A DNA stretch of 27,122 bases from a virus, in IMG/VR virus record IMGVR_UViG_3300029858_000001, positions 1 through 27,122 of that record; one strand, 5' to 3'. The notes below the pieces were generated by a model. The model was not told the origin of the DNA, did not search any database, and saw only the letters and a program-made list of their open reading frames with translations. Positions 1 to 27,122 of this stretch are shown piece by piece. Both the position numbers and the translations under genes were made by a program. Numbering within the stretch: position 1 is the stretch's first letter; each line of letters begins with the position of its first letter.

Positions 1-525
1 GCTGAATGTATGTGCTGCGGTAAAGGCTATGAAGCTGATCCAAGTGGAAATGTAGATGCATTTGTAGAATGTGATAAAGTTGTATGTGCGACCTGTGAAG
101 GCAAAGTTCAGTGCGATGATTGCGGAGCTTGGATTGATAGTGAAGATGCTTGGTTCTGTAGTGAAGATGGTGCAACGTATTGTAGTTGGTGTGCAGATGG
201 TCGCACCCAGGTCTGTAGCTGTTGCGGAGAAACTAAATGGCTTGATTATGATTTCAAGAAGCAGGCTCTTCCCTATATGTTTGAAGTAAAAACTCCTAAT
301 GGTAAGCATCGTCGAGATATTGGAAATCCCATTGATGTTTGTGATGATTGTTACGAAGATTATGATTTTGATGATGTACCGAAGGAGCCAGACTTGTGGG
401 GCGATTTTCAGTATATTGATGTTGACAAGGTAGATAAGAAGGTATGGGAGCCATTTTTGTCCCTTGACAGAATTGCTGATGCCAAGATGCGGCTAAAGGC
501 GATTTACCCTGATGATTATATTTAG
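1..525 (+). CDS. Cys-rich multi-CxxC (zinc-ribbon-like) protein, 5'-truncated at window edge. Its C-terminal architecture resembles the C-termini of 5522-7165, 8682-9680 and 9761-11083
   Basis: Frame is open from nt 1. It has tandem CxxC pairs (CATCEG, CDDCGAW, CSWC, CSCCGE, CDDC). It ends at TAG 523-525. Because TAG is sense elsewhere in this window, the true end may be TAA 577-579. Confidence 0.6.
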   Translation, partial: AECMCCGKGYEADPSGNVDAFVECDKVVCATCEGKVQCDDCGAWIDSEDAWFCSEDGATYCSWCADGRTQVCSCCGETKWLDYDFKKQALPYMFEVKTPNGKHRRDIGNPIDVCDDCYEDYDFDDVPKEPDLWGDFQYIDVDKVDKKVWEPFLSLDRIADAKMRLKAIYPDDYI

Positions 526-604
526 TTTAAATTCTTGCCAAAATTGAATACTCGAAAATTTATAAAAAATTTGATATAATATATATAGAAAGGATGGGAG
601 AGAT

Positions 605-1060
605 ATGGAACGCATTTATAGATTAACATATGGTCCTTATTATGAAAAGCAGGAACTTGGTTATCTTACTGAAGATAAATTGAATGATTATCTTGAAGAG
701 TTGTTTAATTCTACATTGTTTAGAAACTCTGTCTATAGTCATTTTGAAACTCTTAAAGCTGAAAAAGCTCGGTATGAAACTAAACGCCATGAAGCAATTC
801 AGGATATGAATAAATATCTCTCTATCCTTCAGGCCGGAAAAGCAAGTCTTGAATACAAAGACGCCAAGAAACAATATAAGAAATATGAACGTATTGTCAT
901 TGATTGTAACTGCCAAATGAAGAAAATAGATAAGTTAGTTGAAGAACATAATAAATGGACAGCAACTGATTGGCTTCATTGGGCTGATTACAATTGGGAA
1001 TCTATTGAACTTAATGTAGTCAGACCGGTTAATGAGAGGGCAAACGAGGATTGGATGTAA
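605..1060 (+). CDS. hypothetical protein (151 aa)
   Basis: Long ORF with an SD-like GAAAGGATGGGAG upstream. It follows a promoter-like TGaTATAAT extended -10. Confidence 0.6.
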   Translation: MERIYRLTYGPYYEKQELGYLTEDKLNDYLEELFNSTLFRNSVYSHFETLKAEKARYETKRHEAIQDMNKYLSILQAGKASLEYKDAKKQYKKYERIVIDCNCQMKKIDKLVEEHNKWTATDWLHWADYNWESIELNVVRPVNERANEDWM

Positions 1061-1296
1061 TGGAAAAGAAAGAAATGGTAATTAAAATCCTTAAAGAAAG
1101 CGGCACTCTTACTGCAAAGCAAATTTCAGCATTTGCAAAGCGTAAGTATGATTTTGATATTACACCGCAGGGTGCTTCGGGTGTTATGCGTAGTCTCATC
1201 GGTCAGGGGCTGGCGGCGAGTTCTAAAGATGGCAGCAATCAAACACGATATTGGCTTAATGCCTGTACATGGAAGGATATGACTGCAAATGATTAA
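1051..1296 (+). CDS. small putative DNA-binding (HTH/winged-helix-like) protein
   Basis: 81-aa ORF overlapping the previous stop. The segment KEMVIKILKESGTLTAKQIS looks like an HTH. Confidence 0.45.
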   Translation: MDVMEKKEMVIKILKESGTLTAKQISAFAKRKYDFDITPQGASGVMRSLIGQGLAASSKDGSNQTRYWLNACTWKDMTAND

Positions 1297-1519
1297 AAAA
1301 TGTGTTGTAACTATTTTATTAACTGCATTTATTGGGGTACTTCTTATTTCCTCTTGGAAATATACTTGTAATAAAATTCGTATTTTCCCTGATACTCTTT
1401 GGTCTAAAGGCGTTGAAATTCAAAAGCGAGATGGATATAAAATTGATCTTCATCATCCGTATGAAATGGTTGAAACAGAAGAAGGTTATGATTTAATCAT
1501 TCATTTTGTAGAGGAATAA
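1289..1519 (+). CDS. small membrane-anchored protein
   Basis: 76-aa ORF with an N-terminal hydrophobic helix (VVTILLTAFIGVLLISSW). Confidence 0.45.
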   Translation: MIKKCVVTILLTAFIGVLLISSWKYTCNKIRIFPDTLWSKGVEIQKRDGYKIDLHHPYEMVETEEGYDLIIHFVEE

Positions 1520-1520
1520 G

Positions 1521-1673
1521 CATGGCTGAATGTATTTATTTTAGGTATGAAGATACAACTCCTTGGCATGGTGATGTATTTGACCATCCTGATTATGAAT
1601 ATTATTGTGTGAGAAATACAAAAAAGAAAGAAATTTTTCCTTGGACTTGTCTCGAATGTCCTCATTACACTAA
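1521..1673 (+). CDS. small hypothetical ORF (50 aa)
   Basis: ATG preceded by GAGGAATAAGC. It is not in the supplied ORF track because it is under 60 aa. Translated by hand. Confidence 0.25.
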
Positions 1674-1690
1674 AGAAAGAGGAGAAAACC

Positions 1691-1963
1691 ATGATTCATA
1701 AAATGATTGCTTGTTCAAAAGAATGTCTTCGCTTTGCCTGCTGTGATTTCTGCAAGTATGTTATTCAGGATTATTTTTTTAATGAAGATAAAGATGGAAA
1801 TATGCAGATTGTAAATGGCGGACCTGATGGCTGTTCTCTTCATAAAGATAAAGAGCATCAAAGGATTGCTAAAAATTGTGGCTATTGCCAAGATTTCCAT
1901 TGCGTAAATGCAACTGAAAATAATAAAGATAGCTGGGTTGTAAAGGAGTTCGTAGATGACTGA
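1691..1963 (+). CDS. Cys-rich small protein (90 aa)
   Basis: ORF with GAGGAGAAAACC SD. It contains 10 Cys (CCDFC, CGYCQDFHC). Confidence 0.5.
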   Translation: MIHKMIACSKECLRFACCDFCKYVIQDYFFNEDKDGNMQIVNGGPDGCSLHKDKEHQRIAKNCGYCQDFHCVNATENNKDSWVVKEFVDD

Positions 1964-2204
1964 ATATAAATGTAAAGTATATGTGATTGAACCGCAGATA
2001 GGATGGCATGGATTTAGTCTGGTCGCTGCCCTTGATGCTGAACATGCCAATCAAACTATTCGCAAAGCCGCTGGAGAGAGTAGATATTATTGGGGATATT
2101 CACATGTGCGAGAGTATGATGCTATTGATAATGTTTATTCTGATACTATTGGATTTGTATATGAGGGGATTTTTGAAGATGATGAATATAGCAGAATTGA
2201 TTAA
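1956..2204 (+). CDS. hypothetical protein (82 aa)
   Basis: ORF overlapping the stop of the previous gene (ATGACTGA). Confidence 0.45.
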   Translation: MTEYKCKVYVIEPQIGWHGFSLVAALDAEHANQTIRKAAGESRYYWGYSHVREYDAIDNVYSDTIGFVYEGIFEDDEYSRID

Positions 2205-2421
2205 ACTGGTTGAAAAAACTGATTGGAATAAATACCGGAAAAAAGATATTCTTGATTTGGTCAAAGAGCATCCTGAACTTCTGGATATGACACCTGTTCA
2301 GCTTCGTACTAGAGCCAGAGATTTGGATTGGGATGCTGATGGATACATGAATAAAGTTAATAGCCTTGAAAATGAAGCGTCTTTGACCAGAGATTTAATT
2401 GAAATTATGTATGGAGAGTGA
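2179..2421 (+). CDS. hypothetical protein (about 80 aa; the ORF also opens at 2008 but that start overlaps 1956-2204)
   Basis: Internal ATG at 2179 is preceded by GAGGGGATTTTTGAAG. The frame is shared with track ORF 2008-2421. Confidence 0.4.
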   Translation: MMNIAELIKLVEKTDWNKYRKKDILDLVKEHPELLDMTPVQLRTRARDLDWDADGYMNKVNSLENEASLTRDLIEIMYGE

Positions 2422-3233
2422 TAATTATGAATTACCATTCAGATAAATGGGTTATGGATAAAGTAGAAACTCATTTAGAAGCAGCTAATGTTAGAAGCGA
2501 AAATTGGGTTAGTTTAATGGCTTATGGTAGCCAGAATTATGGTCTTGATACTCAATCGTCTGATGTAGATACCCGGCTTATTGTTCTTCCTTCATTTGAA
2601 GATATTGTATTAAATAAGAAGCCGGTATCTTATACCAAGATTCTTCCTAATGATGAACACATTGATTTTAAAGATATTCGTTTGTTCATTGATTGTTTAA
2701 AGAAACAGAATATGGCTTATCTTGAATGTATTTTCACTCCTTATAAAATGGCATCAAGCGAATATTGGAATGAATGGCAGGAGCTGCTCAATGAGCGTGA
2801 AGCTATTGCCCGTTATAATCCTTATAAGGCAGTTAAAACTATGAAGGGTATTGCTATGGAAAAATACCATGCAATGGAACATAGATATCCTATCAAGGTT
2901 CCCCTAATTGATACATATGGTTATGATAGTAAGCAGCTTATGCATTTGTTCCGTATTGAACAGTATCTTGGACGTTATATTGATGGGGTTAAGTATGCTG
3001 ATTGTCTTCCAGCACCAAGGGGTGATTATCTTCTTGCTGTAAAAAATTATCACTATGATCTTGAAGCTGCACGAATTGTAGCTAAAACTGCTATTGACAA
3101 TATTACAAGAGTAGCTGATAATTATTGTGCCAAAACTAAAGATGAAGGTAATAAAGAACTTGAAGATTTTATGAATAATGTCGTTTATAAAATCATGAAG
3201 AAAAGAGTAGTAAAGGAAATGTTAAATGTCTAA
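2418..3233 (+). CDS. Pol-beta superfamily nucleotidyltransferase (MNT-like)
   Basis: Motif GSQNYGLDTQSSDVDTRLIV matches the minimal nucleotidyltransferase signature G-S-x9-13-D-x-D. Confidence 0.6.
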   Translation: MIIMNYHSDKWVMDKVETHLEAANVRSENWVSLMAYGSQNYGLDTQSSDVDTRLIVLPSFEDIVLNKKPVSYTKILPNDEHIDFKDIRLFIDCLKKQNMAYLECIFTPYKMASSEYWNEWQELLNEREAIARYNPYKAVKTMKGIAMEKYHAMEHRYPIKVPLIDTYGYDSKQLMHLFRIEQYLGRYIDGVKYADCLPAPRGDYLLAVKNYHYDLEAARIVAKTAIDNITRVADNYCAKTKDEGNKELEDFMNNVVYKIMKKRVVKEMLNV

Positions 3234-3417
3234 CGAAAATATGACTATTGAAATTGATATTCGAGATATTGAAGAAATTGAAAAGAATATCGAAATTTTA
3301 GCTGAATGGATGACAAATCATTATACACGATTTGGTGCTCAAGCAATTGCACTTACAGCCATTTTTGATAAAGTAGAGGAATTAAAGAAAGAGCTGGCTG
3401 AAGAAGAAAATACATAA
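3226..3417 (+). CDS. small acidic protein (63 aa)
   Basis: ORF overlapping the previous stop. It is Glu-rich. Confidence 0.4.
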   Translation: MSNENMTIEIDIRDIEEIEKNIEILAEWMTNHYTRFGAQAIALTAIFDKVEELKKELAEEENT

Positions 3418-3430
3418 GGAGGAACCTTCA

Positions 3431-4210
3431 ATGTTCAAGGACTATTTGATTAGAGGCGACTGTCATGGTGATTTTACATGGCTTAATGCAAAAATGTTTA
3501 GAATTTTAAATCCAAAAGACTATGCAATCATCATTCTTGGAGATGTTGGTTTTAATACTGGTAGTACATTCCGAGATAATATGAAGAAAGAATACGCAAG
3601 CCAGTTTGGATATTTTATTTATTGTGTGCGGGGCAATCATGAAGTACGTCCTGAGAACATTGAAGGCATGGAGCGTGTTTGGGATAGTAATGTTCAAGCT
3701 AATGTATGGTATGAGCCAGCTTATCCTCTAATTAGATATTTTGATAATTACGGGATTTATTATCTTAAAACTGAAGATAGAGAATATCGTACATTAGTTA
3801 TTGGTGGTGCTTATTCTGTTGATAAATATTATCGTCTTAAAAACAATCTGCTTTGGTGGGAAGATGAACAATTAAGCGATAAAGAAAAGGCTGATGCTGA
3901 AATGCTTATTCGACAAACTAATAAGCATTTTGATCTTGTACTATCACACACATGCCCTTATTCTCTTAGGCCAGTTGATAAATTCCTTTCAGTAGTAGAT
4001 CAATCTACTGTAGATACCTCTATGGAAGAATGGCTTGAAGAAATTAAGAATATGATTACATATGATGTATGGCTTAGTGGTCATTATCATTGCGATAAAT
4101 TTATTAATAAGCATAATATTATCTTTTTTAATTGTATCGACCCTTTGGAAGATATTTTCCTTTGGCATGATAAAATGGATGATACTGTAAATAATATTGA
4201 CCGCTTTTAA
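3431..4210 (+). CDS. calcineurin-like metallophosphoesterase (Ser/Thr phosphatase-like)
   Basis: Motifs GDCHGD, ILGDVGFNTG and VRGNHE match the GDxHG / GDxxDRG / GNHE phosphoesterase signature. The RBS is AGGAGGAACC. Confidence 0.75.
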   Translation: MFKDYLIRGDCHGDFTWLNAKMFRILNPKDYAIIILGDVGFNTGSTFRDNMKKEYASQFGYFIYCVRGNHEVRPENIEGMERVWDSNVQANVWYEPAYPLIRYFDNYGIYYLKTEDREYRTLVIGGAYSVDKYYRLKNNLLWWEDEQLSDKEKADAEMLIRQTNKHFDLVLSHTCPYSLRPVDKFLSVVDQSTVDTSMEEWLEEIKNMITYDVWLSGHYHCDKFINKHNIIFFNCIDPLEDIFLWHDKMDDTVNNIDRF

Positions 4211-4237
4211 ACGATCAATTCTTTTTAGCTATTAAAT

Positions 4238-4266
4238 TTGACTTTTCATATGAAATATAGTATTAT
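4238..4266 (+). promoter_or_regulatory. sigma70-like promoter, TTGACT-17 nt-TATTAT
   Basis: TTGACT lies at 4238-4243 and TATTAT at 4261-4266, with exactly 17-nt spacing. It sits upstream of the 4304 gene. Confidence 0.5.
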
Positions 4267-4303
4267 TTACTAAGTATTTATTTTATATTGAAGGAGAATT
4301 AAT

Positions 4304-4891
4304 ATGCGAAAATTCTTAAATGTCATTCTTGTAATCACTATGGTTGCTTTAATGATGATGCCAGTAAGTGCTTTTAATATAATAAGTTATAGTGCTGATG
4401 GCGGAAGCAGGTCAGAAATCGAATACGGTCTTACAGAATATTGTAATTGCGGAATCGACCATACTAATAAACCCTTTGAATGGTGGACTGATATTACATC
4501 TACTGATAGTCCACAATGGGATTTAATTCATAACTATTTAACTATTCAAGAGAATGGCACATTAGCTACTGATGATGGCTATACCGCTTGTGCTCTTGGA
4601 AGATATTTCGGTAAAATTGGCTCAAAATGGATTTTTATTTGTGAAGACGGTTCAGAGATTAAGGTAGTTAAAGCTGATGAAAAGCAAGACCGCCATACAA
4701 AAAACTGGGATTTAATTCACGGTATTATTTGCGATGAATTAATTGAGCTTGTTGTAGATAGTAAGATTAGTCAAACTTGCCCAACTGGTAATTTCAAAGA
4801 CCTTGAAGGTTTTGAAGGTAATATAATTGGGTGGAAAGAAGTTCTTAATAATGAATTACCTGATTTATTAAAAGGAACAATTTATAAATAA
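4304..4891 (+). CDS. secreted or exported protein with an N-terminal signal peptide
   Basis: The N-terminus MRKFLNVILVITMVALMMMPVSAF is a typical signal peptide. The RBS is GAAGGAG. Confidence 0.6.
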   Translation: MRKFLNVILVITMVALMMMPVSAFNIISYSADGGSRSEIEYGLTEYCNCGIDHTNKPFEWWTDITSTDSPQWDLIHNYLTIQENGTLATDDGYTACALGRYFGKIGSKWIFICEDGSEIKVVKADEKQDRHTKNWDLIHGIICDELIELVVDSKISQTCPTGNFKDLEGFEGNIIGWKEVLNNELPDLLKGTIYK

Positions 4892-4917
4892 AATAATATT
4901 AAACGAGGTAATATAAA

Positions 4918-5418
4918 ATGAGCGTAGTTGCCGCGAAGGTATATGACAATAATATTCAAATGTCTGCGGATAGTATTTTAACTAATGGATGGGAAAAAGA
5001 CCCCAATACTAACTTTACTAAAATTATTTCTTTAAATGATATGATTGTTGGTAGTGTTGGTAATGCGGATGAATGCAGTCTTATGTGGCTATATATGGAA
5101 AATCATCAACCGCTTAATGCCACAGAAAGAGAAATTCTTAATTATTTTACTGAATTTGGTAAATGGAAAGGCGAGATTTCTAGTACTCGTGAGATTAGGA
5201 ATAGTTATTTAATGGCTTTTGGAGGTCATCTTTTTCAGATTTGTGGATATTTGGTTAGAGAAATTAAAGATTATTATGCCATTGGGGCTGGCGCTCCTTA
5301 TGCTTTGACCGCACTTCATCTTGGACATGATTCAGAAGAAGCTGTTAAAGTTTCTTGTGCTATGTGTTGTTTCGTTTGTGAACCTATTGTGACATATAGT
5401 CAAAAAAGAGGCGATTAA
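4918..5418 (+). CDS. HslV / 20S-proteasome beta-subunit-like Ntn-hydrolase
   Basis: Segments VGSVGNADECSL and AIGAGAPYALTAL resemble HslV AGFAGGTADAFTL and AIGSGGPYAQAAARAL. A Ser/Thr follows the Met. Confidence 0.55.
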   Translation: MSVVAAKVYDNNIQMSADSILTNGWEKDPNTNFTKIISLNDMIVGSVGNADECSLMWLYMENHQPLNATEREILNYFTEFGKWKGEISSTREIRNSYLMAFGGHLFQICGYLVREIKDYYAIGAGAPYALTALHLGHDSEEAVKVSCAMCCFVCEPIVTYSQKRGD

Positions 5419-5426
5419 ATATAGAT

Positions 5427-5470
5427 AAAAAGGGATAAAGATTTGATTCTTTATCCCTTTTTGATTTTTA
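5427..5470 (+). terminator. rho-independent terminator
   Basis: Stem AAAAGGGATAAAGA / TCTTTATCCCTTTTT followed by a T-tract. Confidence 0.7.
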
Positions 5471-5521
5471 TAATAAAATATTATAAAATATTTATAGAAA
5501 AAATAAAGGGAGTAAATAATC

Positions 5522-7165
5522 ATGACACCTTATGAAGCATTGACTGCACAAGATAAGGAATATATTACTGAATATATTGAAACATGGGGTGGCATTAATT
5601 CCCCAATTAAGCTTAAAGCACCTCTTAATTATATTCTTGGAGAATGGAATAAGAGTAAGCAAACTTTGTTTAATATCTTTGGCGAAAAGTTAATGCTGGA
5701 GAAGGAAATTCAAGTTGAAGATGGAGATAACAAAAAAATAAGAGAAGTTAGTGAGTATCTCTATAGCTTTAACCCTGGTATTAATTTTATTAAGAATCTT
5801 CGTAAGTTATTTGAGCTTAACGATACTTATTTTGAAAATACTTATGCAACAAAACATGCAATATATAATTTAATTCAAGCTTATCAACTTTTTACTAATA
5901 GAGTTGCTAAAGGATTTACTTATCATAATAAAGATGGTAAAATAGTTAAAGTTCCAGAAGGAGCTAAGGTAATGAAAGTTCTTCAGAAAATGGCTAAAGA
6001 ATTTGATTTGCCTGATTTTGAAATTTTTCGTAATCATATTTCGCGTATCACTGAAGTACGCAAATCTAAAATTAAATTTACTCTATCTATTCATCCTCTG
6101 GATTATATGACTATGAGTGATAATGTGAATGGGTGGGAAAGTTGTATGAACTGGACTCAAGGACCAGGTAGTTATCGTTCTGGTACTATTGAGATGATGA
6201 ATAGTCCATTAGTTGTTGTAGCTTATATTACTACTAAACCTTATTATCCAACAAATACTTCTATTGAATGGACTTCCAAAAGCTGGAGAGAATTGATTAT
6301 TGTTCATCCGAATACTATTTGTTCTGTAAAATCTTATCCTTATTACAATATTGCCTTTGATAAAGCTCTTGTTAATTGGCTTGCTAATCTGGTTGAAGAA
6401 AAAACTGAATGGCGTTATAACAGAAAACAGCCACAAGAGAGTTTGGAAAGTTGTTCTTATATTGAAGCTTGGCAAGATAAAGAAGATGAAGATAATCATT
6501 TCCTGTTGGATTTTGAAACAAATGAAATGTATAATGATTTTGGTAACACAGAAAATTATGGGATTTTTTCAATTAATCCACCAGACAATAAATATCGTAC
6601 ATTCGCAATTAATTATTCTGGTTTGATGACTTGTATGTGCTGTGGCGAGGATGGTTATTGGTCTGATGATACTGAAGCAGTAGTTTGTGAAGACTGTGAT
6701 CCACCCACTTATTGTTATTGCTGTGGCGAACGAGTTAATGCAAATGATGCAATTGAAGTAGATGGTGAATGGGTTTGCGAAGATTGTTATAATGATTTGC
6801 ATAGATGCTTATGCTGTGAGGATGCTCATTTTGATGAAGATTTCACTACTGTATTTGTTGGACATATTGATAATCAAACTATTAATATTGATTATGATGA
6901 GCATTATATTTGTAATGAATGTCTTGCCAATAAAGAATATTTAAAGTATCTCAGAGATACTAATATTAGGGCTGAAACAATTCGATTGGATGGCGGTCCT
7001 TATTATGGTATAGTGGCTCTCTTAATTGAAGAAGATGATTTAAATGTAGAGGCTAAAAAGATAATTTCTAATGATCCTTATTCTACTATAATTACTGATT
7101 ATACTTATGCTATTCGTCGTTATCCTGAGCGTTTTTATAGTTACAATAGGTCAATTGCGATTTAA
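5522..7165 (+). CDS. large protein: N-terminal 'HPLDY...W-SC' domain plus C-terminal multi-CxxC zinc-ribbon array (paralog of 9761-11083)
   Basis: SIHPLDYMTMSDNVNGWESCMNW resembles SVHPLDYLSLSENTHNWRSCHAL in 9761. Repeated CxxC pairs occur in the last 180 aa. Confidence 0.7.
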   Translation: MTPYEALTAQDKEYITEYIETWGGINSPIKLKAPLNYILGEWNKSKQTLFNIFGEKLMLEKEIQVEDGDNKKIREVSEYLYSFNPGINFIKNLRKLFELNDTYFENTYATKHAIYNLIQAYQLFTNRVAKGFTYHNKDGKIVKVPEGAKVMKVLQKMAKEFDLPDFEIFRNHISRITEVRKSKIKFTLSIHPLDYMTMSDNVNGWESCMNWTQGPGSYRSGTIEMMNSPLVVVAYITTKPYYPTNTSIEWTSKSWRELIIVHPNTICSVKSYPYYNIAFDKALVNWLANLVEEKTEWRYNRKQPQESLESCSYIEAWQDKEDEDNHFLLDFETNEMYNDFGNTENYGIFSINPPDNKYRTFAINYSGLMTCMCCGEDGYWSDDTEAVVCEDCDPPTYCYCCGERVNANDAIEVDGEWVCEDCYNDLHRCLCCEDAHFDEDFTTVFVGHIDNQTINIDYDEHYICNECLANKEYLKYLRDTNIRAETIRLDGGPYYGIVALLIEEDDLNVEAKKIISNDPYSTIITDYTYAIRRYPERFYSYNRSIAI

Positions 7166-7632: not shown

Positions 7633-7639
7633 TACATGA

Positions 7640-18151: not shown

Positions 18152-18157
18152 TTATAT

Positions 18158-20159: not shown

Positions 20160-21638
20160 ATGGATAAAATTATAAATTGTTTAGATAAAATAAATTGGAA
20201 AACTGTTATAATAGTTTCTGGAGGATGTAATTTAAATTGTAAGTACTGTTTAGTTAATAAATCTAAATCAGGAACTAACTATCCTAATTTTTTAAAAGAT
20301 ACTAATGCTGCGATAGCTAATGGTTCTTACTTAGATACTTTTAAAAAAGCATTTTAGAAATATAATCAAAGTCCTCGCCAAGTTGAAATTATGGAATTAT
20401 GGGGCAATGAACCAACTTTAATGCTTAAAGATTTAAATAAAGTTTGGAAAGACTGGTTAGAAGTTTTTTCTGGATTAAAAGGAATGACTTTTTCAACAAA
20501 CGGAATTGATTGTACTGATGATATATTTAATTTTATTTTAGAAATAGATAAGTATATCGACCATGAAATAGAAATAAGTATTTAGTATTCTTATGATGGC
20601 TTTCAAGGTGAAATAAATGAAAGACAACATAACAAAGAGAAGAAAGATACAGAATAGGATAGCATAGTTATTAATAATTTAATTAATTTAATAACAAAAC
20701 TTAACAGTGTAAAATTACATAATGTTAAAATAGATTTTATTCTTCATGCTGTACTATCTATGTTTATTGTAGATAATTTTAATACAACTGAAGATATTAG
20801 TAAATTTGTTGAACAATATATGGATACACTATATAGAATTAATCAATCTATTATCAACCAAAGAATTATATTCCGTGGAGGAGTATTTTTACATGAAAAT
20901 GCTCATGATTGGACCAGCGATGATGGAATTAATTATTGTAGCTTTATGAGAAAGTTCCAAAATATTTTAAGTGCTAAGAAACATAATTTTAAAAATGAAG
21001 GCGTCCAATATAGACATATTTTTAAAGAAGTTTTTGGAACTTTAGAAGAGGATATAATTAGTTTATGTTATAAAACTAATTGTCGTTCAATTGATACATT
21101 AATAGATAATTTTATAACTAATAAAGATTTACCAATTAATAGTTATTGTAGTTCTTTTGATGGTGTTTTACGAATAGATTATCAAGGAAATCTTTTAGAC
21201 TGCCATGCTTCTTTATATGACCCTTACCTAGAAAAGGATAAATTAACTAATACAATTTTAGATCAGGGTCGATGGATGTGTAAAGAACATGGACGGTATC
21301 TTAATATTCTAAAAAATGATAAAGAAGAAATTGAAAAATTACTTGATTTTTATCTTACTGCTCGTGACCCAACGGTAACTTTATTTGAAACATAGCAAAT
21401 GATAAATAAAATATATTTATTAGCTTTATGTGGATAGGCTAATGAATCTTATCTATATGATTTTAATAAATTAAAACGTCATGCTTTTATACTGGCTAAA
21501 GCATATCAATGCTATAATATATTAAAATGCCGGAATGGCTCTATTTTTGTTAGAGGAAATGAAGAAATAAGATTTTTCTGTAATGGTATTTTAGATATAG
21601 CTGAAGAAAATATAAATAGAGAAATTGGAGATTTTTAA
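20160..21638 (+). CDS. radical SAM enzyme with a SPASM/twitch domain (CNLNCKYC is CxxxCxxC; GNEPTL is the GGEP-like motif; CSSFDGVLRIDYQGNLLDC is Cx12Gx4C). It includes 4-5 TAG sense codons. Track fragments 20160-20357, 20391-20585 and 20760-21395 are one frame.
   Basis: All fragments are in frame 0 and separated only by TAG (20355, 20583, 20655). After TAG 21393 the same frame continues through a Cys-rich tail (ALCGQ, YQCYNILKCRNG, FFCNG) to TAA 21636. The minimal end is 21395. Confidence 0.65.
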
Positions 21639-21640
21639 TA

Positions 21641-23065
21641 ATGACTTATAAAGAACAAGAAAGAGATTTATTAAAATTATATTTAGATACAGCTTTATTA
21701 CCATATCCCACTAATTCAAATTCTGATGGAGACTATTTTTTAAATGAAAATGGATTTGAATTAATAGTACGTCCTTAGTGTAATTAGCATTGTTCATATT
21801 GCTATATAGCTAATTATGGCAAAGAACTTTATCCAACAGTGTTAAATAAAAAGGATACTTTAAAAAATATTGATCTTGTTTTAGATTATGTTTATAATAT
21901 AAGAAAAAATTTCTGTTATAATATAGCTCTGTTTGCCGGAGATATGTTTAATGATGAAATTTTCTTTGATATTGTTGATCTGCTTGAAAAATATCTAAAT
22001 CCTATTTTAATAAAACATCCTGAATATTTTAATAAACAGGGTTTAATTCAATGTCCTTGTAATTTACGATGGGTATATGAAAAACCTCAATTAGTATCAA
22101 GATTTAGAAAAATATATTATCATTTTAAAAATGTTTATAATATATATATGAGTTTTTCTTGGAGTACTGATGGATTACCAGCAATAAAAAATAGAGAAAA
22201 AATTGATATAGATCAACATTATTTTGATACTATTTTTTAGTTTACTAAAGAATTTGGTTTCGGATACCATCCTATGATTAGTGCCGAAAATATTGATGTT
22301 TGGTGTGAAAATATTGATTGGTGGTATGACATGTATAAGAAATTTGATTTAGCTGCTCCTAATGGTTATTATCAACCTTATATGCTTGAAGTACGTAATG
22401 GTAATTGGACTCCAGAAACTATTGAATTACATAATAAATTTCTTGAACATTTTATGAAAAAAAGATTTGAATTATGTGATAGTGATAAAACTAAATTTGT
22501 ACATCATTTATTAATTGGGACTGATGAAGATGGAAATTTACCATTCCCTCAAGGATGTGATCCATTAGATTTAAAATCCAGTAGCTCAACAAGTAGTAAT
22601 TTTGATAAAATGAGCTGTGGTGCTTAGAGTATGATTCATTTTAATTGTACTAATCTATCTTTAGTATTTTGTCATAGAATGTCTTATCCTCTTTACACTG
22701 GTGGGTATTTTAAAACAGATGAAGAGAAAAATCATATTATTGATATAGATCCCTATAATGTAAGTGCATATATAACTATGAAAACGGCAAAAACAACTAC
22801 TTTCCCTTTGTGCGCAAAATGCAAATACTTTAGTCTTTGCAAGTTAGGATGTCTTGGGGCTTAGACTGAAGATAGTGGAGAACCTTATATGCCAATTAAA
22901 GCTGTTTGTGCTTTTAATAAAGTTAAATATGAAAAATTGACTGATTTATATTATCAATATGGTGTTTATGATATAGGAGTTAAAAAAGGTTGGCTCACAA
23001 AAGATAAATCTTGGTTAACATTTATCTACAATCAAGGAATAGAAAGAGGGTATATAAATGAATAA
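21641..23065 (+). CDS. second radical SAM / SPASM enzyme (P(Q)CN(Q)HCSYC is CxxxCxxC with two TAG inside the motif; C-terminal CAKCKYFSLCKLGC is CxxCx5Cx3C). Track fragments 21839, 22274 and 22631 are one frame with 5 TAG.
   Basis: Frame 2 is continuous from ATG 21641 (RBS GGAGAT) to TAA 23063. The interruptions at 21776, 21785, 22238, 22625 and 22862 are all TAG. Confidence 0.65.
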
Positions 23066-23423
23066 AAAAGTTAAATTTTTAATTGCCTTAAATTCTATTA
23101 AAGAAAACTTTGATATTAATAATATAAATGATTATCAAGAATTAATTGATATTTGCAGTCGAATAAATTATGCAAAAGAAAAGGATGAAGATATTCTTTC
23201 ATTCGTTAAAGAAATTATATAGTTAATTGCATTAAAATAGATAGACTCAAAAGAATGTGATTCTTGTTGGCAAGAATATATACCTGATATTCCAATTGAC
23301 AATCAACCTGAAAATGATGATTTTTATAGTCATAGTAATACTTTTTAGAATTTATTTAAATTGGATATATTCAATCCTTTAAATCCAGATTATAAGTATA
23401 CAAATATTTTAAAATTTAATTAA
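23058..23423 (+). CDS. small hypothetical protein (about 121 aa, 3 TAG)
   Basis: ATG overlaps the previous gene's end. Hand-translated in frame 0 to TAA 23421. Confidence 0.4.
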
Positions 23424-23438
23424 AAAGAGAAAAAAATA

Positions 23439-24296
23439 ATGATTTATTTTACTTTACAAAATTTTTATGAAAATCAAAAATTAAATAATATATTTTTCAT
23501 TGTGCAAGATAAATTTTCTGGCTCTTTTAAAGTTCCTGTTAAATTTATTTATACCGCCGGTTCTTTCCCCTATACCTATTGGAACGGCGGTATAAATAAC
23601 AACTTTGGTATTGGCGATAATACTTATGATACAATTATAGAATATTCTAATAATAACCTATTGCCTTTAAGAATTAATTGTAGTAATATTAATTTAAATC
23701 CTAATGATTTTGATGATACTATTATGAATGTAATTTTAAATTTATTAAATAATAGTAGCAATGCTATTGAATTATCAAATTTGGAATTATATGAATATCT
23801 ATATAAAAAGTATCCTAACTTTCATTATATTTTATCGAATAATTTTAACTTAATTAACTCACTAACTCCAGAATTAATTAATAAATTGAATGAAATTTGT
23901 GATTTTTATTTAATTCAAATTCCATTAAATAAAATTAAAGATTTAAATTTCTTAAAAGCAATACAAAATAAAAGGAACATTGAGTTACCTGTTGGAGATA
24001 TTTGTAATTGTACAAGTTTAGACGATTGTAATATTAAAGAACAAATAGCTCAATATAACTATTCAGATTCTTTTACTAAAATAAATTGTTCTAAATGTTC
24101 AGGACTTAATTATAGTTTATCTATAGAAGATATTCAGAATAATTATGTTCCTTTAGGATTTCATAATTTTATTTTACCAGATTATTGTAATTCAAAAAAT
24201 AATAATATAATTAAATTTTTTATTGATTTTTTTATTAAAGATTCTGACAAATTATTGATTTATGAATTTATAGAGGAGCAAATGTATTATGGTTAA
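23439..24296 (+). CDS. U32-family-like protein A (paralog of the next gene; Cys-rich, CNCTSLDDC, CSKCSG)
   Basis: Shares NSLTPE, PLGF(H/E) and YP(N/M)(F/Y)(H/K)Y motifs with 24289-25158. No TAG. Confidence 0.45.
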   Translation: MIYFTLQNFYENQKLNNIFFIVQDKFSGSFKVPVKFIYTAGSFPYTYWNGGINNNFGIGDNTYDTIIEYSNNNLLPLRINCSNINLNPNDFDDTIMNVILNLLNNSSNAIELSNLELYEYLYKKYPNFHYILSNNFNLINSLTPELINKLNEICDFYLIQIPLNKIKDLNFLKAIQNKRNIELPVGDICNCTSLDDCNIKEQIAQYNYSDSFTKINCSKCSGLNYSLSIEDIQNNYVPLGFHNFILPDYCNSKNNNIIKFFIDFFIKDSDKLLIYEFIEEQMYYG

Positions 24297-25158
24297 GTAT
24301 GCAATTCCAGGAATGTATGAATTAGCAAATTTAAATTTTAAACTCTTAGATTTAAAATCTGCTAATCCTGAATATTTTTACGATGACGTAGAAATTGAAA
24401 TTAGTTATGGTAATCCTCAATTTTGTATCTGGGATGGAGGAAGAGTATTTTCTTTTTATAAACAAGCTTCTATTGATATTATAAAAAATATAATTGATAC
24501 ATATAATAATAAATATCATATCCCTATTAGATATGTATTTACAAATAATCAATTAACTCCAAAAGAATATAAAAATAGATTTTGTAATTTATTAATGGAA
24601 GCAGGAAGTAACGGTCCTAATGAAGTAGTAGTCGCTGATGATGATTTTATGCTTTATCTTAAAGAACAATATCCTATGTATAAATATGTATCATCGACTA
24701 CTAAAGTTATTACTGATCCAGAAGAGGCAAAAAAAGAAATTGATAAAAAAGATTATAAACTTACCTGTTTACATTATGATTTAAATTTCAATTTTAAATT
24801 TTTGAATTCTTTAACACCAGAAGAGCGAGCAAAAACAGAGTTTTTAATTAATCCAATCTGTCCTGCTGGTTGTCAATTCAGAAAAGAACATTATAAACTG
24901 AACAGTCAAATGGTTTTAAATTATGGTAAATCTTACACTACTCCTTGGTGCGGAATTACTAAAAATAATTTCTATCCATCTGTTCGTAAAAATCATATGA
25001 GTTATGAACTAATTAAAGAAAAATATGCTCCTTTAGGTTTTGAGCATTATAAAATTGAAGGACGTACTTGGGAAGAGTTAGAGGCAGCTTTAACTTATTG
25101 CGAGTATATGATAAAACCAGAATATCAAAATTACGTACTACCTTATTTAATGGGCTGA
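24289..25158 (+). CDS. peptidase-U32-family protein B (RlhA/UbiU/UbiV/TrhP superfamily)
   Basis: The C-terminal motif GFEHYKIEGRT matches the conserved U32 KIEGR segment (compare E. coli YhbU HSLKIEGRTKS). Cys residues CPAGC and WCG may bind an Fe-S cluster. No TAG. Confidence 0.5.
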   Translation: MVKYAIPGMYELANLNFKLLDLKSANPEYFYDDVEIEISYGNPQFCIWDGGRVFSFYKQASIDIIKNIIDTYNNKYHIPIRYVFTNNQLTPKEYKNRFCNLLMEAGSNGPNEVVVADDDFMLYLKEQYPMYKYVSSTTKVITDPEEAKKEIDKKDYKLTCLHYDLNFNFKFLNSLTPEERAKTEFLINPICPAGCQFRKEHYKLNSQMVLNYGKSYTTPWCGITKNNFYPSVRKNHMSYELIKEKYAPLGFEHYKIEGRTWEELEAALTYCEYMIKPEYQNYVLPYLMG

Positions 25159-25187
25159 TTAATTTAATCAGTCCATCTTTTTTTTTA
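25155..25187 (+). terminator. probable terminator (palindrome CTGATTAA-T-TTAATCAG followed by a T-run)
   Basis: 8-bp perfect hairpin. The T9 run begins 6 nt downstream. Confidence 0.45.
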
Positions 25188-25338
25188 TATATTTTAAAGA
25201 CAGTAGGTTATGAACTGCTCTAGCCGGCTTGGGATGCTAAAACCGAATGCTTAAATTAAAATTCCATTTAAGAAATTTTCGGTCCAATAGGTATAGAGCA
25301 ACATAAAATAATTTTAAATATGAAAGGAGAAGGACAAT

Positions 25339-25452
25339 ATGAAAATGTTTATTCTTTCATATAAGGGCGGCAAAGACGGCGGCGACATTGACAAAGAAGA
25401 TACTTCTAAGTCAACAGGCGGCTGGGATGGCGGCTCTATAGATGATGATTAA
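25339..25452 (+). CDS. 37-aa Gly/Asp-rich peptide (MKMFILSYKGGKDGGDIDKEDTSKSTGGWDGGSIDDD)
   Basis: RBS AAAGGAGAAGG at good spacing. It lies between the U32 genes and the tail-fiber genes. Confidence 0.35.
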   Translation: MKMFILSYKGGKDGGDIDKEDTSKSTGGWDGGSIDDD

Positions 25453-25469
25453 AGAAAGGAGAACACGAG

Positions 25470-26531
25470 ATGGCTGAAATTATTAAGTTAAGACGTGGTA
25501 AATCAACCAGTTGGTCTAAAAAGAATATAGTTCTTGCAGCTGGTGAAATCGGCGTAGAACTTGATACACATTAGATTAAAGTCGGCGATGGTTCAACACC
25601 TTGGAATAAACTATCTTATGTAGGCGGAACTAAAGTTGTTAATGTTCAAGAATACACTGATAATCCAGCAGTTGTAGATGGCGTGCCTTATCAATCTATT
25701 GATGTAGCATTTATGAAGGCTCCAGCAGGAAGTACAATTCGTCTTAATACCAACTTTGATAACAGCGTTTCTATTGATAAAGCATTGACTATTGAATTAA
25801 ATGGTAATGATATTATCAACAATGAAAAAACTCCAATAGATATCAAAGCAAATGGCGATCTAACTATTAAGGGCCAAGGCACTATTGAATGTAATAAGAA
25901 TGAAAATGCCGCAGTTTTTAATAATGGTAATATTACTATTAATAATGGTAAATTACAACGTACTACTGATGTATCAGGCAATGGCTATTATACTGCTGTT
26001 AATCATGGCATTATGACAATTAATGGTGGCATGTTTATGAGTGGTGGCGAGTTTTCTAGTATGATTGAAAATGGCTATTGGGATTATCACGCTGGTAATG
26101 CTACTAATGGTTATGTTCAAGGTCAAAATGCTGAAATGCCTACATTAACTATTAATGATGGTACATTCGCTGGCGGCTTATATGCTATAAAAAATGATGA
26201 TAATGCTGTTTTAAATATTAATGGCGGCACATTCTATAATACTATTCTTGCTAATGGTAAGTCAATGACTATTACTAATGGATATTTTGAAAATAGTAAA
26301 CCAAGCCAAGGGGAATATAATTTTTATCTTCGTAAATTAAGTGAAGATATAAATCCTCAAAATACATACATTAGTGGCGGTACATTTATTACTGCACAAG
26401 ATAAGAATTTCAAGGTTGAGGGTGACCCTCATATTGAAATTAGTGGTGGTCGTTTTAATAGAGAATTAGATCCTTCTTATTTAGCTCCTGGCTATAGACA
26501 AGTACTTGTCAATGGCTTCTATACTGTCTAG
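25470..26531 (+). CDS. tail fiber / receptor-binding protein with a conserved N-terminal domain and a beta-helix-like NGG repeat body (1 TAG at 25572)
   Basis: The N-terminus IKLRRGKSTSWSKKNIVLAAGEIGVELDTH(TAG)IKVGDGSTPWNKLSYVGG parallels the next gene. It has repeats NGGTFYN and NGGMFMSGG. The frame is continuous into track ORF 25683-26531. Confidence 0.6.
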
Positions 26532-26546
26532 AAGGAGGAATAATCT

Positions 26547-27062
26547 ATGGGTGATATCATCAAGTTCAAAAGAGGTCGATCAACTACATGGCGCGAAAAG
26601 AACTTATTGCTTAAGGACGGCGAGCCTGGATTTGAATTAGACACTTATAAACTGAAAATTGGTGATGGTAAAACTTTATGGAATGATTTACCATATATTG
26701 GTGGCGAAAGTGGTATAATTGATCTTCCTGATAATGTAATGGAATTTTTAGGTACAGTTGATGCACTTCCAGCTACCGCTGAGGATGGAGAAATGTGTAT
26801 TTATAATGGTAAATTATATATTTATGATGGTAAATGGACAACTACAGAAACTTCTTCTTCAACACAAAATTCTTTCAATTCTTTAGTAGATGCAATTAAT
26901 TATATCACTTAGCATAATTGTGTTGGTCAAATTGTATCTATCTTTTAGAATAATAAATGGTTGCCTTATATTGTAGATGTAAATAATAATCTTGTACCTA
27001 TTCAATATGGAGAAGATAGTTATGATATTCTTAATGGTGGCAACGCAAATACTCTTAATTAA
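26547..27062 (+). CDS. second tail-fiber-like protein sharing the same N-terminal domain (2 TAG at 26910, 26946)
   Basis: The N-terminus IKFKRGRSTTWREKNLLLKDGEPGFELDTYKLKIGDGKTLWNDLPYIGG parallels the previous gene. The frame continues after TAG to TAA 27060. Confidence 0.55.
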
Positions 27063-27084
27063 TTTTATAGGAGGAAAATGATTT

Positions 27085-27122
27085 ATGGCTGATAAAATTC
27101 TTAATACTCGTATTCAAGTATT
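27085..27122 (+). CDS. start of next gene (truncated by the window end)
   Basis: AGGAGG lies 10 nt upstream of ATG 27085. Confidence 0.4.
   Translation, partial: MADKILNTRIQV

What the first reader, a model, noticed from the sequence alone, without database searches (positions are those of the whole stretch)
1..27122. TAG (amber) is a sense codon throughout this genome segment
Every interruption of otherwise continuous, motif-bearing reading frames is TAG and never TAA or TGA. Examples are HNH nuclease 15105-15719, zinc-finger nuclease 12872-13795 with 10 TAG, both radical-SAM genes with TAG even inside the CxxxCxxC cluster motif, tail-fiber N-domains, and 9761-11083. Fragments listed separately in the ORF track share one frame and are separated only by TAG. 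TAA and TGA end all genes. This matches stop-codon-recoded phages (code-15-like). The inserted amino acid, perhaps Gln, cannot be read from sequence alone.
Basis: seen in the sequence. Interest (0 to 1): 0.85.

Follow-up and report, generated by a model that had tools for sequence, protein, structure and literature searches.

The report
Gut phage reading TAG as glutamine
This is part of an uncultivated gut phage genome that uses the stop codon TAG as an ordinary codon, almost certainly for glutamine, which is a kind of recoding already well documented in gut phages.

Summary
All genes are on the + strand. 49 in-frame TAG codons interrupt otherwise open, homologue-supported reading frames, and none of these frames contains TAA or TGA. 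All 30 gene models end in TAA (25) or TGA (5).

Reading TAG as sense raises long-ORF cover of 12.6-27.1 kb from 43% to 77%. Reading TGA as sense gives only 47%.

Full-length homologues align straight across the TAGs. The best-conserved TAG columns are glutamine:
- EFDGE-Q-H in the nuclease.
- CN-Q-xC, position 329 and GCLGA-Q in the second radical-SAM protein.

A standard-code relative has CAG/CAA at these sites. Close relatives swap TAG with CAG/CAA.

TAG use is uneven: 4 per 3566 codons in the first 12 kb, against 45 per 3365 codons after it. It is densest in two homing-type nucleases.

No tRNA(CUA), release factor or GlnRS lies in the window. None was found in the parts of close relatives that I could reach. 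A more distant syntenic relative does carry a Gln-like tRNA(CUA).

Verdict: a new member of the known code-15 recoded phages.

In passing, two tRNA genes here are split by tRNA-shaped inserts. One of these inserts carries the TAG-rich HNH gene. I could not match these inserts to any described intron class.

The parts
12872..13795 (+). Zn-ribbon repeat plus C-terminal nuclease (EFDGEQH family), 307 aa, with 10 in-frame TAG (12968, 13055, 13124, 13163, 13322, 13481, 13496, 13601, 13700, 13775). It behaves as a free-standing homing-type nuclease.
   Evidence: 2458 homologues, most of them full length. TAG at residue 244 lies opposite an invariant Q, 102/102. L001/L002 have CAG at 12968, and L003 has CAA at four TAG sites. 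The gene is absent from relatives L086 and L088.
15105..15719 (+). HNH endonuclease, 204 aa, with 9 in-frame TAG (15387, 15408, 15426, 15531, 15570, 15585, 15609, 15702, 15711). It is encoded inside the insert that splits a tRNA-Lys gene.
   Evidence: Pfam HNH/HNH_2. 1433 homologues, with 204-aa full-length matches through to the last residues, EWEKI against TAG-W-E-TAG-I. In homologues checked at the DNA level, CAA is the commonest codon opposite TAG.
20160..21638 (+). Radical-SAM protein 1, 492 aa, with 5 in-frame TAG (20355, 20583, 20655, 21393, 21435).
   Evidence: The Pfam Radical_SAM match at residues 17-160 spans two TAGs. The standard-code locus L170 has CAG at 20583 and 21435.
21641..23065 (+). 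Radical-SAM/SPASM-like protein 2 (AslB-like), 474 aa, with 5 in-frame TAG (21776, 21785, 22238, 22625, 22862). One of them lies inside CxxxCxxC.
   Evidence: 30 full-length homologues. Q is opposite TAG in 28/30 at residue 49, 23/30 at residue 329 and 28/30 at residue 408. The standard-code locus L170 has CAG, CAA and CAA at those sites.
18784..20124 (+). Three small late ORFs: 18784-19155 (2 TAG), 19155-19541 (1 TAG) and 19534-20124 (6 TAG). The last has a Cys-rich C-terminus.
   Evidence: The same ORFs, with the same TAGs, occur in the close relative L172. Some sites are exchanged for CAA, AAA or GAA.
23058..25158 (+). Rest of the radical-SAM cassette: 23058-23423 (3 TAG), 23439-24296 (0 TAG) and 24289-25158 (0 TAG).
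   Evidence: Syntenic with L172, L170 and L171.
25470..27062 (+). Two tail-fibre genes with Mtd_N N-terminal domains: 25470-26543 (TAG at 25572 and 26529) and 26547-27062 (TAG at 26910 and 26946).
   Evidence: The Pfam Mtd_N match at residues 5-43 spans the TAG at residue 35. At 26529, L001 has CAG and L172 has AAG.
7800..8627 (+). Gene in the TAG-poor part of the window, 275 aa, with 2 in-frame TAG (7854, 7995).
   Evidence: About 1000 homologues of roughly 260 aa. Their N-termini (MKYCL...ADEI) align with MKVCL...AE-TAG-V, so the gene starts at 7800 and reads through both TAGs. The first TAG lies opposite a near-invariant Glu. Both TAGs are kept in four relatives.
9761..11083 (+). Zn-ribbon protein, paralogue of 5522-7165, with an in-frame TAG at 10961.
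   Evidence: A third CxxC...CxxC ribbon continues in frame after the TAG. The TAG is kept in four relatives.
1..12005 (+). TAG-poor block of 16 genes. It includes an RlaP-type nucleotidyltransferase, a metallophosphoesterase, an HslV-like peptidase and an M28-like peptidase. There are 4 in-frame TAG in 3566 codons.
12454..12602 (+). tRNA gene (mature anticodon loop CUUAUAA, so Ile-UAU) split by a 73-nt tRNA-shaped insert at 12491-12563.
   Evidence: Rfam tRNA, 42.7 bits, with a 76-nt insertion. Boundaries come from the insert rule. A compensatory change occurs in the insert stem in L085/L087.
14975..15784 (+). tRNA-Lys(UUU) gene split between U35 and U36 by a 735-nt tRNA-shaped insert (15009-15743) that carries the HNH ORF.
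   Evidence: The intronless allele L088:21391-21465 has the same body and the loop CUUUUAA. L086 has a 58-nt insert at the same site.
13901..18245 (+). tRNA cluster:
- Phe(GAA) 13901-13977
- Leu(UAG) 14196-14271
- odd tRNA-like 14356-14426
- Val(UAC) 16316-16392
- Glu(UUC) 16727-16801
- Asp(GUC) 16874-17412, with a 464-nt insert encoding a PD-(D/E)XK nuclease
- Ser(GCU) 18060-18151
- Sec-like tRNA with anticodon CCA 18158-18245

None has a CUA anticodon.
   Evidence: ARAGORN, Rfam, Pfam PF11645.

Best explanation
The window is part of a large (about 105-190 kb) uncultivated gut phage that translates TAG as glutamine (genetic code 15). TAA and, less often, TGA are its only terminators.

**Shown**
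- TAG is read through in at least ten genes.
- The residue expected at the conserved TAG positions is Gln.
- TAG and CAA/CAG replace each other between relatives.
- TAG is about 12 times denser in the nuclease, radical-SAM and tail-fibre part of the window than in the first 12 kb.

**Inferred from published recoded phages and from a syntenic relative**
- A phage-encoded amber-suppressor tRNA(CUA) with glutamine identity sits elsewhere in the genome.
- It is charged by the host's glutamine-charging machinery.
- Once made, it lets TAG-containing genes be translated in a host that itself uses the standard code.
- TAG-rich genes (tail fibres, the radical-SAM cassette, homing nucleases) are therefore held back until the suppressor is present.
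For: **Read-through**
- Full-length homologue alignments run across 10, 9, 5 and 2 TAGs.
- Pfam domains span TAG positions.
- ORF cover of 12.6-27.1 kb rises from 43% to 77% only when TAG is sense. No gene ends in TAG.

**Glutamine**
- Q is invariant or nearly so opposite TAG: nuclease residue 244 (102/102); radical-SAM 2 residues 49, 329 and 408 (28/30, 23/30, 28/30).
- In L170, whose gene translates correctly under table 11, these sites are CAG/CAA. The same holds at 20583 and 21435 in radical-SAM 1.
- Among 43 TAG-free loci from GTDB genomes, Q is 41/43 at residue 244. Over all ten TAG columns Q makes up 21% of residues, against a 4.7% background.
- Close relatives exchange TAG with CAG or CAA at 4547, 12650, 12968, 19518, 26124, 26499 and 26529.
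- BLOSUM62 summed over 26 TAG columns gives Q 43.6, E 32.9, K 26.6, with Y, W and L negative.
- CAG is nearly absent from late genes. TAG plus CAA/CAG gives a normal Gln content of 3-6%.

**Mechanism**
- The syntenic relative contig IMGVR_UViG_3300045988_171746 (L153 plus L091) carries a tRNA(CUA) at L091:5958-6031. It has G73 and an unpaired 1-72 position, as in tRNA-Gln.
- tRNA(CUA) genes occur in 10 other TAG-using related loci.

**Literature**
- TAG to Q in gut phages, bias to late genes, and recoded homing-endonuclease genes: 10.1101/2021.08.26.457843.
- Proteomic proof in crAss-like phages: PMC9523058.
Against: - No tRNA(CUA), release factor or GlnRS was found in the window. None was found in close relatives L085-L088, L001, L172, L174/L175 or L177 either. 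Together those cover about 42 kb of the 188-kb contig of the closest long relative.
- The first TAG of gene 7800-8627 lies opposite a near-invariant Glu. HNH residue 200 is mostly Glu.
- Many database homologues were themselves translated with code 15 ('translates_to_query: no'). Their Q residues are therefore partly circular evidence. The DNA-checked subsets are smaller.
- One of the two search patterns used to collect the GTDB loci required Q at residue 244.
- The timing model is inference only. Genes in the TAG-poor block still contain 3-4 TAGs.
- There is no peptide evidence.
Confidence: 0.9

Rival explanations
1. TAG is a sense codon but stands for another residue, such as Glu, Lys, pyrrolysine, Tyr, Trp, Leu or Ser.
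For: K and E are common opposite TAG at variable columns. Two columns are mostly E: 7800-gene residue 19 and HNH residue 200.
Against: The four best-conserved TAG columns are Q, with E and K essentially absent, and they are CAG/CAA in a standard-code relative. Between close relatives, exchanges with CAA/CAG outnumber those with GAA or AAR. Y, W, L and C score strongly negative. I saw no Pyl genes, but I did not search for them systematically.
Confidence: 0.06
2. TAG has two meanings here. It terminates translation early in infection, or at some sites such as 523 near the end of ORF 1-579. It is read as Gln only once a suppressor accumulates, so read-through is partial and regulatory rather than a full reassignment.
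For: TAG density differs 12-fold between the two parts of the window. TAG 523 lies 18 codons before a TAA and just ahead of the next gene's start, so it could act as a stop. The published model proposes such timing (10.1101/2021.08.26.457843).
Against: TAGs near C-termini of the HNH, the nuclease and the fibre genes align with sense residues in homologues. No gene needs TAG as its terminator. Sequence alone says nothing about efficiency or timing.
Confidence: 0.25
3. TAG is a true stop. The fragments are pseudogenes, sequencing errors, or separate short genes.
For: None beyond the formal reading under table 11.
Against: Only TAG interrupts the frames, never TAA or TGA. The TAGs are conserved in position in relatives from independent samples. 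Homologues align across them.
Confidence: 0.01
4. The host itself uses TAG as a sense codon, so the phage simply follows its host's code.
For: No suppressor tRNA was found in the phage DNA I could reach.
Against: The TAG-poor block of genes suggests a need to be readable under the standard code. Related phages carry their own tRNA(CUA). [quoted passage not shown] The host of this phage is unknown.
Confidence: 0.03

Closest known systems
TAG-recoded (code 15) gut phages: crAss-like, Lak, and the Garnet, Amethyst, Topaz and Agate clades (10.1101/2021.08.26.457843; PMC9523058)
   Same: In-frame TAG read as Gln. Low GC (31%). TAA-dominated termination. TAG concentrated in structural or late genes and in homing-endonuclease genes. 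Gut origin. Many phage tRNAs.
   Different: I found no sequence relationship to any of these clades, and I did not test clade membership. There is no megablast match in 50,697 GenBank phage records, and no close relative by protein search either. No suppressor tRNA was seen in the window.
Phassvirus phAss-1 group (PMC10607447)
   Same: A gut phage of about 136 kb with TAG in 41 ORFs and three suppressor tRNA genes. Size class and habitat are similar.
   Different: No DNA or protein match to GenBank phages was found for the window, so it is not a member of that genus.
Group I introns in bacterial tRNA anticodon loops, including HNH-bearing ones at position 35/36 in Patescibacteria (PMC13011429)
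   Same: For the side observation: inserts in the anticodon loop, often right after U35. Some carry HNH or PF11645 PD-(D/E)XK homing endonucleases. ARAGORN misplaces their boundaries and so miscalls the anticodon.
   Different: The tRNA-shaped inserts end in NCCA, not in G. They can be as short as 44-73 nt. They give no Rfam group I match, whereas a true group I intron in a tRNA(CUA) gene of L105 is detected.

Membership tests
Stop-codon-recoded phage, TAG to Gln (genetic code 15) | In-frame TAG inside conserved protein-coding genes, with homologues aligning across them | tested here: met
   Pfam domains spanning TAG.
Stop-codon-recoded phage, TAG to Gln (genetic code 15) | TAG not used as a terminator; TAA/TGA end the genes | tested here: met
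   25 TAA, 5 TGA, 0 TAG. C-terminal TAGs align with sense residues.
Stop-codon-recoded phage, TAG to Gln (genetic code 15) | Residue opposite TAG in standard-code homologues is Gln | tested here: met
   Conserved Q columns. These are CAG/CAA in the table-11 locus L170. Among TAG-free GTDB loci, Q is 41/43 at residue 244. Exceptions: two columns that are mainly Glu.
Stop-codon-recoded phage, TAG to Gln (genetic code 15) | Phage-encoded suppressor tRNA with anticodon CUA | tested here: not met
   None in the window, or in L085-L088, L001, L172, L174, L175 or L177. It is present in the syntenic relative L091 and in other TAG-using loci. Only 27 kb of a genome of at least 105 kb was available. The published survey found suppressors in only about 40% of TAG-recoded genomes.
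Stop-codon-recoded phage, TAG to Gln (genetic code 15) | Recoded codons enriched in late, structural or lysis genes relative to early genes | tested here: met
   4 per 3566 codons against 45 per 3365 codons. The early or late status of the genes is itself inferred from their annotation.
Stop-codon-recoded phage, TAG to Gln (genetic code 15) | Peptides with Gln at TAG positions | not testable with these tools
   Needs proteomics.
Pyrrolysine decoding of TAG | pylT tRNA with pylS and pylBCD genes, and TAG at a few specific sites | tested here: not met
   No tRNA(CUA) in the window. No Pfam match to Pyl genes among the ORFs scanned. TAG occurs at 49 sites in unrelated proteins. Not every small ORF was scanned.
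Group I intron (for the tRNA-shaped inserts at 12491-12563 and 15009-15743) | Insert ends in G; the catalytic core is recognisable (Rfam RF00028); non-coding RNA of roughly 180 nt or more | tested here: not met
   The inserts end in ...NCCA, with boundaries fixed by the intronless allele. No RF00028 match at E up to 1, whereas the L105 control scores 36.5 bits. Inserts of 44-73 nt exist. One feature is met: the 5' exon ends in U.
Archaeal/eukaryal bulge-helix-bulge tRNA intron | Insert at 37/38 with a bulge-helix-bulge motif at the junctions | tested here: not met
   Inserts lie at 34/35 to 36/37. Reading the junctions by eye, I found no 3-nt bulge / 4-bp helix arrangement. No formal search was run.

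The most novel reading that the evidence does not exclude
The tRNA genes of this TAG-recoded phage lineage carry a class of intervening sequence that I could not find described.

**What the inserts look like**
- They sit in the anticodon loop and are themselves tRNA-shaped.
- Each has a 7-bp acceptor-like stem, a D-like hairpin and a T-arm, followed by a discriminator base and CCA.
- The anticodon arm is missing, or is replaced by an HNH gene full of TAG codons.
- The insert ends coincide exactly with the ends a mature tRNA would have.

**Proposed mechanism (untested)**
- Excision is carried out by tRNA end-processing enzymes: RNase P at the 5' end and an RNase Z-like cut after CCA.
- An RNA ligase then reseals the anticodon loop. 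This would be protein-dependent splicing in a bacterial system.
- The TAG codons would keep the homing nuclease silent until the phage has switched the code.

Such inserts also make tRNA finders miscall anticodons. That may help explain why suppressor tRNAs go undetected in many recoded phages.
Probability: 0.35. Interest if true: 0.8.

Novelty: new member of a known kind. Interest (0 to 1): 0.4.

Why it matters
**For annotation.** Under the standard code, more than half of the late region falls apart into fragments. The nucleases, the radical-SAM enzymes and the tail fibres are lost. Any pipeline must use code 15 for this lineage.

**For biology.** This adds a large, uncultivated gut phage lineage to the recoded phages. 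It has no GenBank relative. It repeats two published patterns: TAG concentrated in late genes, and TAG especially dense in selfish nuclease genes. The recoding itself is not new.

**The more unusual material is the tRNA cluster.**
- Three of its tRNA genes are interrupted.
- Two of these carry tRNA-shaped inserts whose boundaries can be fixed exactly from allelic variants.
- Standard tools misread the anticodons of these genes. The same problem could hide suppressor tRNAs elsewhere.

Tried and rejected
1. **Hunt for the suppressor tRNA.**
   - ARAGORN with and without introns, Rfam, and my own scan of the window found none.
   - Walking along relatives with five IMG/VR scans also found none (tRNA scans).
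   - An exact-protein look-up to extend the window leftwards returned only an 897-bp contig.

2. **Is the interrupted tRNA at 12454-12602 the suppressor?** No. Its mature loop is CUUAUAA (Ile-UAU). ARAGORN's 'Trp CCA' is really the CCA tail of the insert.

3. **ARAGORN's 'tRNA-Gln(UUG)' at 14975-15784.** Rejected. The intronless allele shows it is tRNA-Lys(UUU).

4. **Odd tRNA-like genes at 14356-14426, 17517-17584 and 18158-18245.** None offers a CUA anticodon.

5. **Annotated relatives in GenBank phages.** No DNA match, and protein matches only to distant phages.

6. **The radical-SAM 2 protein in IMG/VR.** No relatives found.

7. **Handing in a TAG-containing protein with X to the representative-library search.** I used a TAG-free fragment instead.

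8. **Thermodynamic folding of the short inserts.** Uninformative for the 73-nt one (z = -0.6) and weak for the others. The comparative evidence carries the structure.

9. **An RNA ligase near the interrupted tRNAs.** None was found in the proteins I scanned with Pfam. I also listed the ORFs of L088, L086 and L177 but did not scan them against Pfam. Only an RlaP-type nucleotidyltransferase in the window and an RNA ligase in the unrelated TAG-using locus L003 were seen.

10. **Literature search for tRNA-shaped introns.** Nothing in the held library.

Full report
**The observation.** The window has 31% GC and a steady positive GC skew, and all its genes are on the + strand. If only TAA and TGA are taken as stops, the + strand resolves into long frames containing in-frame TAG.
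- 12872-13795 has 10 TAG and 15105-15719 has 9.
- 19534-20124 has 6, and 20160-21638 and 21641-23065 have 5 each.
- 23058-23423 has 3.
- 18784-19155 and the two tail-fibre genes have 2 each, and 19155-19541 has 1.
- The first 12 kb holds a few more.

None of the 30 gene models ends in TAG: 25 end in TAA and 5 in TGA. Cover of 12601-27122 by ORFs of at least 80 codons is 43% under table 11. It is 77% with TAG as sense and only 47% with TGA as sense. Out of frame, TAA plus TGA make up about 10% of codon positions in these genes. By my arithmetic, frames of 200-490 codons free of both cannot be chance.

**Read-through is real.** The Zn-ribbon nuclease has 2458 homologues, mostly full length. The HNH protein has 1433, with 204-aa matches running to the last residue. 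Radical-SAM protein 2 has 30 full-length homologues. For gene 7800-8627 I searched with its TAG-free C-terminal part. The hits were proteins of about 260 aa whose N-termini align with the window's MKVCL... sequence across both TAGs. The Pfam Radical_SAM and Mtd_N matches also span TAG positions. Nothing ends or gaps at TAG.

**Which amino acid.** A caution applies first. Many database proteins were themselves translated with TAG as Q. The look-ups report 'translates_to_query: no' for P0001, P0009, P0259 and P0242. I therefore checked the DNA.
- *Conserved columns.* The strongest columns opposite TAG are glutamine. Nuclease residue 244 in EFDGE-Q-H is Q in 102/102. Radical-SAM 2 residues 49 (C-N-Q-x-C), 329 and 408 (GCLGA-Q) are Q in 28/30, 23/30 and 28/30.
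- *A standard-code relative.* In L170 the gene translates correctly under table 11. Those three sites are CAG, CAA and CAA, and two TAG sites of radical-SAM 1 are CAG.
- *TAG-free loci.* Among 43 TAG-free loci from GTDB genomes, Q is 41/43 at residue 244. Over all ten columns Q makes up 21% of residues, against a 4.7% background. One of the two search patterns required that Q, so this part is partly circular.
- *Codons in HNH homologues.* In those checked at the DNA level, CAA is the commonest codon opposite TAG.
- *Exchanges between relatives.* Close relatives from other samples swap TAG with CAG or CAA at seven sites, and L003 has CAA at four more. Other exchanges (AAA/AAG, GAA, TGG, ACA, TCA, CGA) are each rarer.
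- *Scoring.* A weighted BLOSUM62 sum over 26 TAG columns gives Q 43.6, E 32.9 and K 26.6. Tyr, Trp, Leu and Cys are strongly negative.
- *Codon usage.* CAG is almost absent from the late genes. TAG plus CAA/CAG restores a normal Gln content.

The main counter-signal is the first TAG of gene 7800-8627, which lies opposite a near-invariant Glu.

**Distribution.** Genes up to 12005 have 4 in-frame TAG in 3566 codons. These genes include an RlaP-type nucleotidyltransferase, a metallophosphoesterase, peptidases and Zn-ribbon proteins. Genes from 12632 onward have 45 in 3365 codons. The densest are two homing-type nucleases, at 3.3% and 4.4% of codons. The published survey of recoded phages reports the same late-gene bias. 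It also reports a preferentially recoded intron endonuclease (10.1101/2021.08.26.457843).

**Mechanism.** The window has no tRNA(CUA), by ARAGORN, Rfam or my own scan. No ORF here matched a release factor or GlnRS in the scans I ran.

Close relatives are IMG/VR contigs of 105-188 kb at 88-94% protein identity. A Hadza gut contig and two Logan/IMG contigs are also close. Where I could reach them, they show no suppressor either. That amounts to about 42 kb of the 188-kb contig.

A more distant relative, contig IMGVR_UViG_3300045988_171746, is syntenic with the window at 30-45% protein identity. It carries a tRNA(CUA) just downstream of its tail-fibre genes. That tRNA has G73 and an unpaired 1-72 position. 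From general knowledge of tRNA identity, these are Gln-like features. Ten other TAG-using loci in my set also have tRNA(CUA) genes.

The most likely mechanism is therefore the published one: a phage suppressor tRNA charged with Gln by host enzymes, with TAG-rich genes translated only once it is present. That step is inferred, not shown. The published survey detected suppressors in only about 40% of TAG-recoded genomes.

**Comparison and novelty.** TAG-to-Gln recoding in gut phages is established, including by proteomics (PMC9523058; 10.1101/2021.08.26.457843; PMC10607447). The window gave no DNA match in 50,697 GenBank phage records. Searches with two of its proteins found nothing for one and only distant matches for the other. 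It is a new member of a known kind.

**Side observation: interrupted tRNA genes.** With introns allowed, ARAGORN reports three split tRNA genes in the window. Its anticodon calls for two of them are wrong.
- *Exact boundaries for tRNA-Lys.* The relative L088 has an uninterrupted tRNA-Lys(UUU). Its body differs by a single base from the exons at 14975-15784, and its loop is CUUUUAA. This fixes the insert as exactly 15009-15743, between U35 and U36.
- *Shape of that insert.* It begins with a 7-nt strand, then TA, then a D-like hairpin. It ends with a T-arm (ATAAG-TTCAAAT-CTTGT), the complementary 7-nt strand, one base and CCA. In effect it is a tRNA cloverleaf whose anticodon arm is replaced by the HNH gene.
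- *The rule generalises.* Taking the insert as tRNA-like nucleotide 1 through CCA gives canonical 7-nt anticodon loops in about 20 cases from related loci. Insert lengths run from 44 to 870 nt.
- *The second case in the window.* The 73-nt insert at 12491-12563 leaves the loop CUUAUAA (Ile-UAU). ARAGORN's 'Trp CCA' is the CCA tail of the insert.
- *Covariation.* Across 18 distinct elements, the acceptor-like and T-like stems are 96.7% paired. 11 of 12 pairs show changes on both sides, and 0 of 500 shuffles reach this. The acceptor pairing was a selection criterion; the T-stem pairing was not.
- *Allelic states at one tRNA-Lys locus.* Three occur among close relatives: no insert (L088), a 58-nt insert (L086), and 735 nt with HNH (the window).
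- *Not a recognised intron type.* The ends (G...CCA) break the group I rule, and Rfam finds no group I core. It does find one in an interrupted tRNA(CUA) gene of L105. I saw no bulge-helix-bulge motif.
- *Literature.* I found no description in the held library. That does not prove none exists.
- *A hypothesis.* Because the insert ends are those of a mature tRNA, RNase P-type and RNase Z-type cuts followed by ligation could remove the insert. This is untested.
- *The third split gene.* tRNA-Asp(GUC) at 16874-17412 has a different 464-nt insert encoding a PF11645 PD-(D/E)XK nuclease. Its ends, U|...G|, fit the group I rule.

**Verdict.** The recoding is of a known kind, and the suppressor has not been located. 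The interrupted tRNA genes deserve their own follow-up.

Noticed in passing
window 15009-15743 (inside tRNA-Lys 14975-15784) and 12491-12563 (inside tRNA 12454-12602): tRNA-shaped inserts in anticodon loops. Each has an acceptor-like 7-bp stem, a D-like hairpin and a T-arm, followed by NCCA. The insert ends coincide with mature tRNA ends. The long insert carries the HNH gene in place of an anticodon arm. Related loci hold about 20 more, 44-870 nt long, with strong covariation. They are neither group I nor bulge-helix-bulge by the tests I could run, and I found no description in the held literature.
   Followed up: partly
window 14975-15784 and 12454-12602; L091 7212-7384 and 9871-10681; L143 and L153: ARAGORN shifts the insert boundaries by 1-2 nt and so miscalls the anticodon. 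It reports Gln(UUG), Trp(CCA), SeC(UCA), Thr, Met and His. Boundaries fixed from alleles give Lys(UUU), Ile(UAU), Glu(UUC) and Asn(GUU). The same error could hide or invent suppressor tRNAs in recoded phages.
   Followed up: yes
window 16874-17412 (insert 16909-17372; ORF 16937-17359): tRNA-Asp(GUC) is split after U35 by a 464-nt insert that is almost entirely an ORF for a PF11645 PD-(D/E)XK endonuclease, the I-Ssp6803I family. The ends fit the group I rule (5' exon ends in U, insert ends in G). Only about 40 nt is non-coding, and Rfam finds no group I core. In L001 the same tRNA-Asp carries an 870-nt tRNA-shaped insert instead.
   Followed up: partly
L105 5879-6141: In a related TAG-using phage, a suppressor tRNA(CUA) gene is itself interrupted after U35 by a 175-nt group I intron (Rfam RF00028, 36.5 bits, E = 7e-8).
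   Followed up: partly
window 12869-13795: The TAG-rich Zn-ribbon nuclease gene is present in the window and in L001/L002. It is missing from L086 and L088, where the flanks are contiguous. Paralogues sit elsewhere in relatives, for example L088 2987-3910. It behaves as a free-standing homing-type nuclease.
   Followed up: partly
window 14356-14426, 18158-18245, 17517-17584: Three odd tRNA-like genes.
- One is conserved in relatives and has loop UGAAAGA (G at position 33, 'anticodon' AAA). L001 has an 8-nt loop there.
- One is 88 nt with a long variable arm, a 6-bp anticodon stem and anticodon CCA. It scores best against the tRNA-Sec model (39 bits).
- One is a weak tRNA match with a 5-nt anticodon loop.

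   Followed up: partly
window 18784-25158; L172, L170, L171; L177 14433-19531: A cassette with two radical-SAM/SPASM-like enzymes, a 196-aa protein with a Cys-rich C-terminus (...HRCTSFSCPSFRCFNCRFNP), and three further conserved proteins. It sits upstream of the tail fibres here but downstream of them in L177. It also occurs, free of TAG, next to a terminase in the standard-code locus L170. It may modify a peptide or a fibre protein. Function unknown.
   Followed up: no
window 2427-3233 and 3431-4210: An RlaP-family 'RNA repair pathway' nucleotidyltransferase lies next to a calcineurin-like phosphoesterase. This may bear on tRNA repair or on joining the split tRNAs. I did not pursue it.
   Followed up: no
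window 7854: This TAG lies opposite a near-invariant Glu (ADEI motif) in about 40 aligned homologues. It is the one conserved column that does not fit Gln.
   Followed up: partly
window 2020 and 6410: Where the window has TGG, some close relatives have in-frame TAG: 2020 in L085, L087 and L088, and 6410 in L085. These may be Trp-to-Gln replacements, or real truncations in TAG-poor genes.
   Followed up: no
window 5522-7165 and 9761-11083: Two paralogous large proteins share an HPLDY...W.SC core and C-terminal CxxC zinc ribbons. Neither has a Pfam or PHROG match. Both are conserved and syntenic in distant relatives L153 and L089.
   Followed up: no
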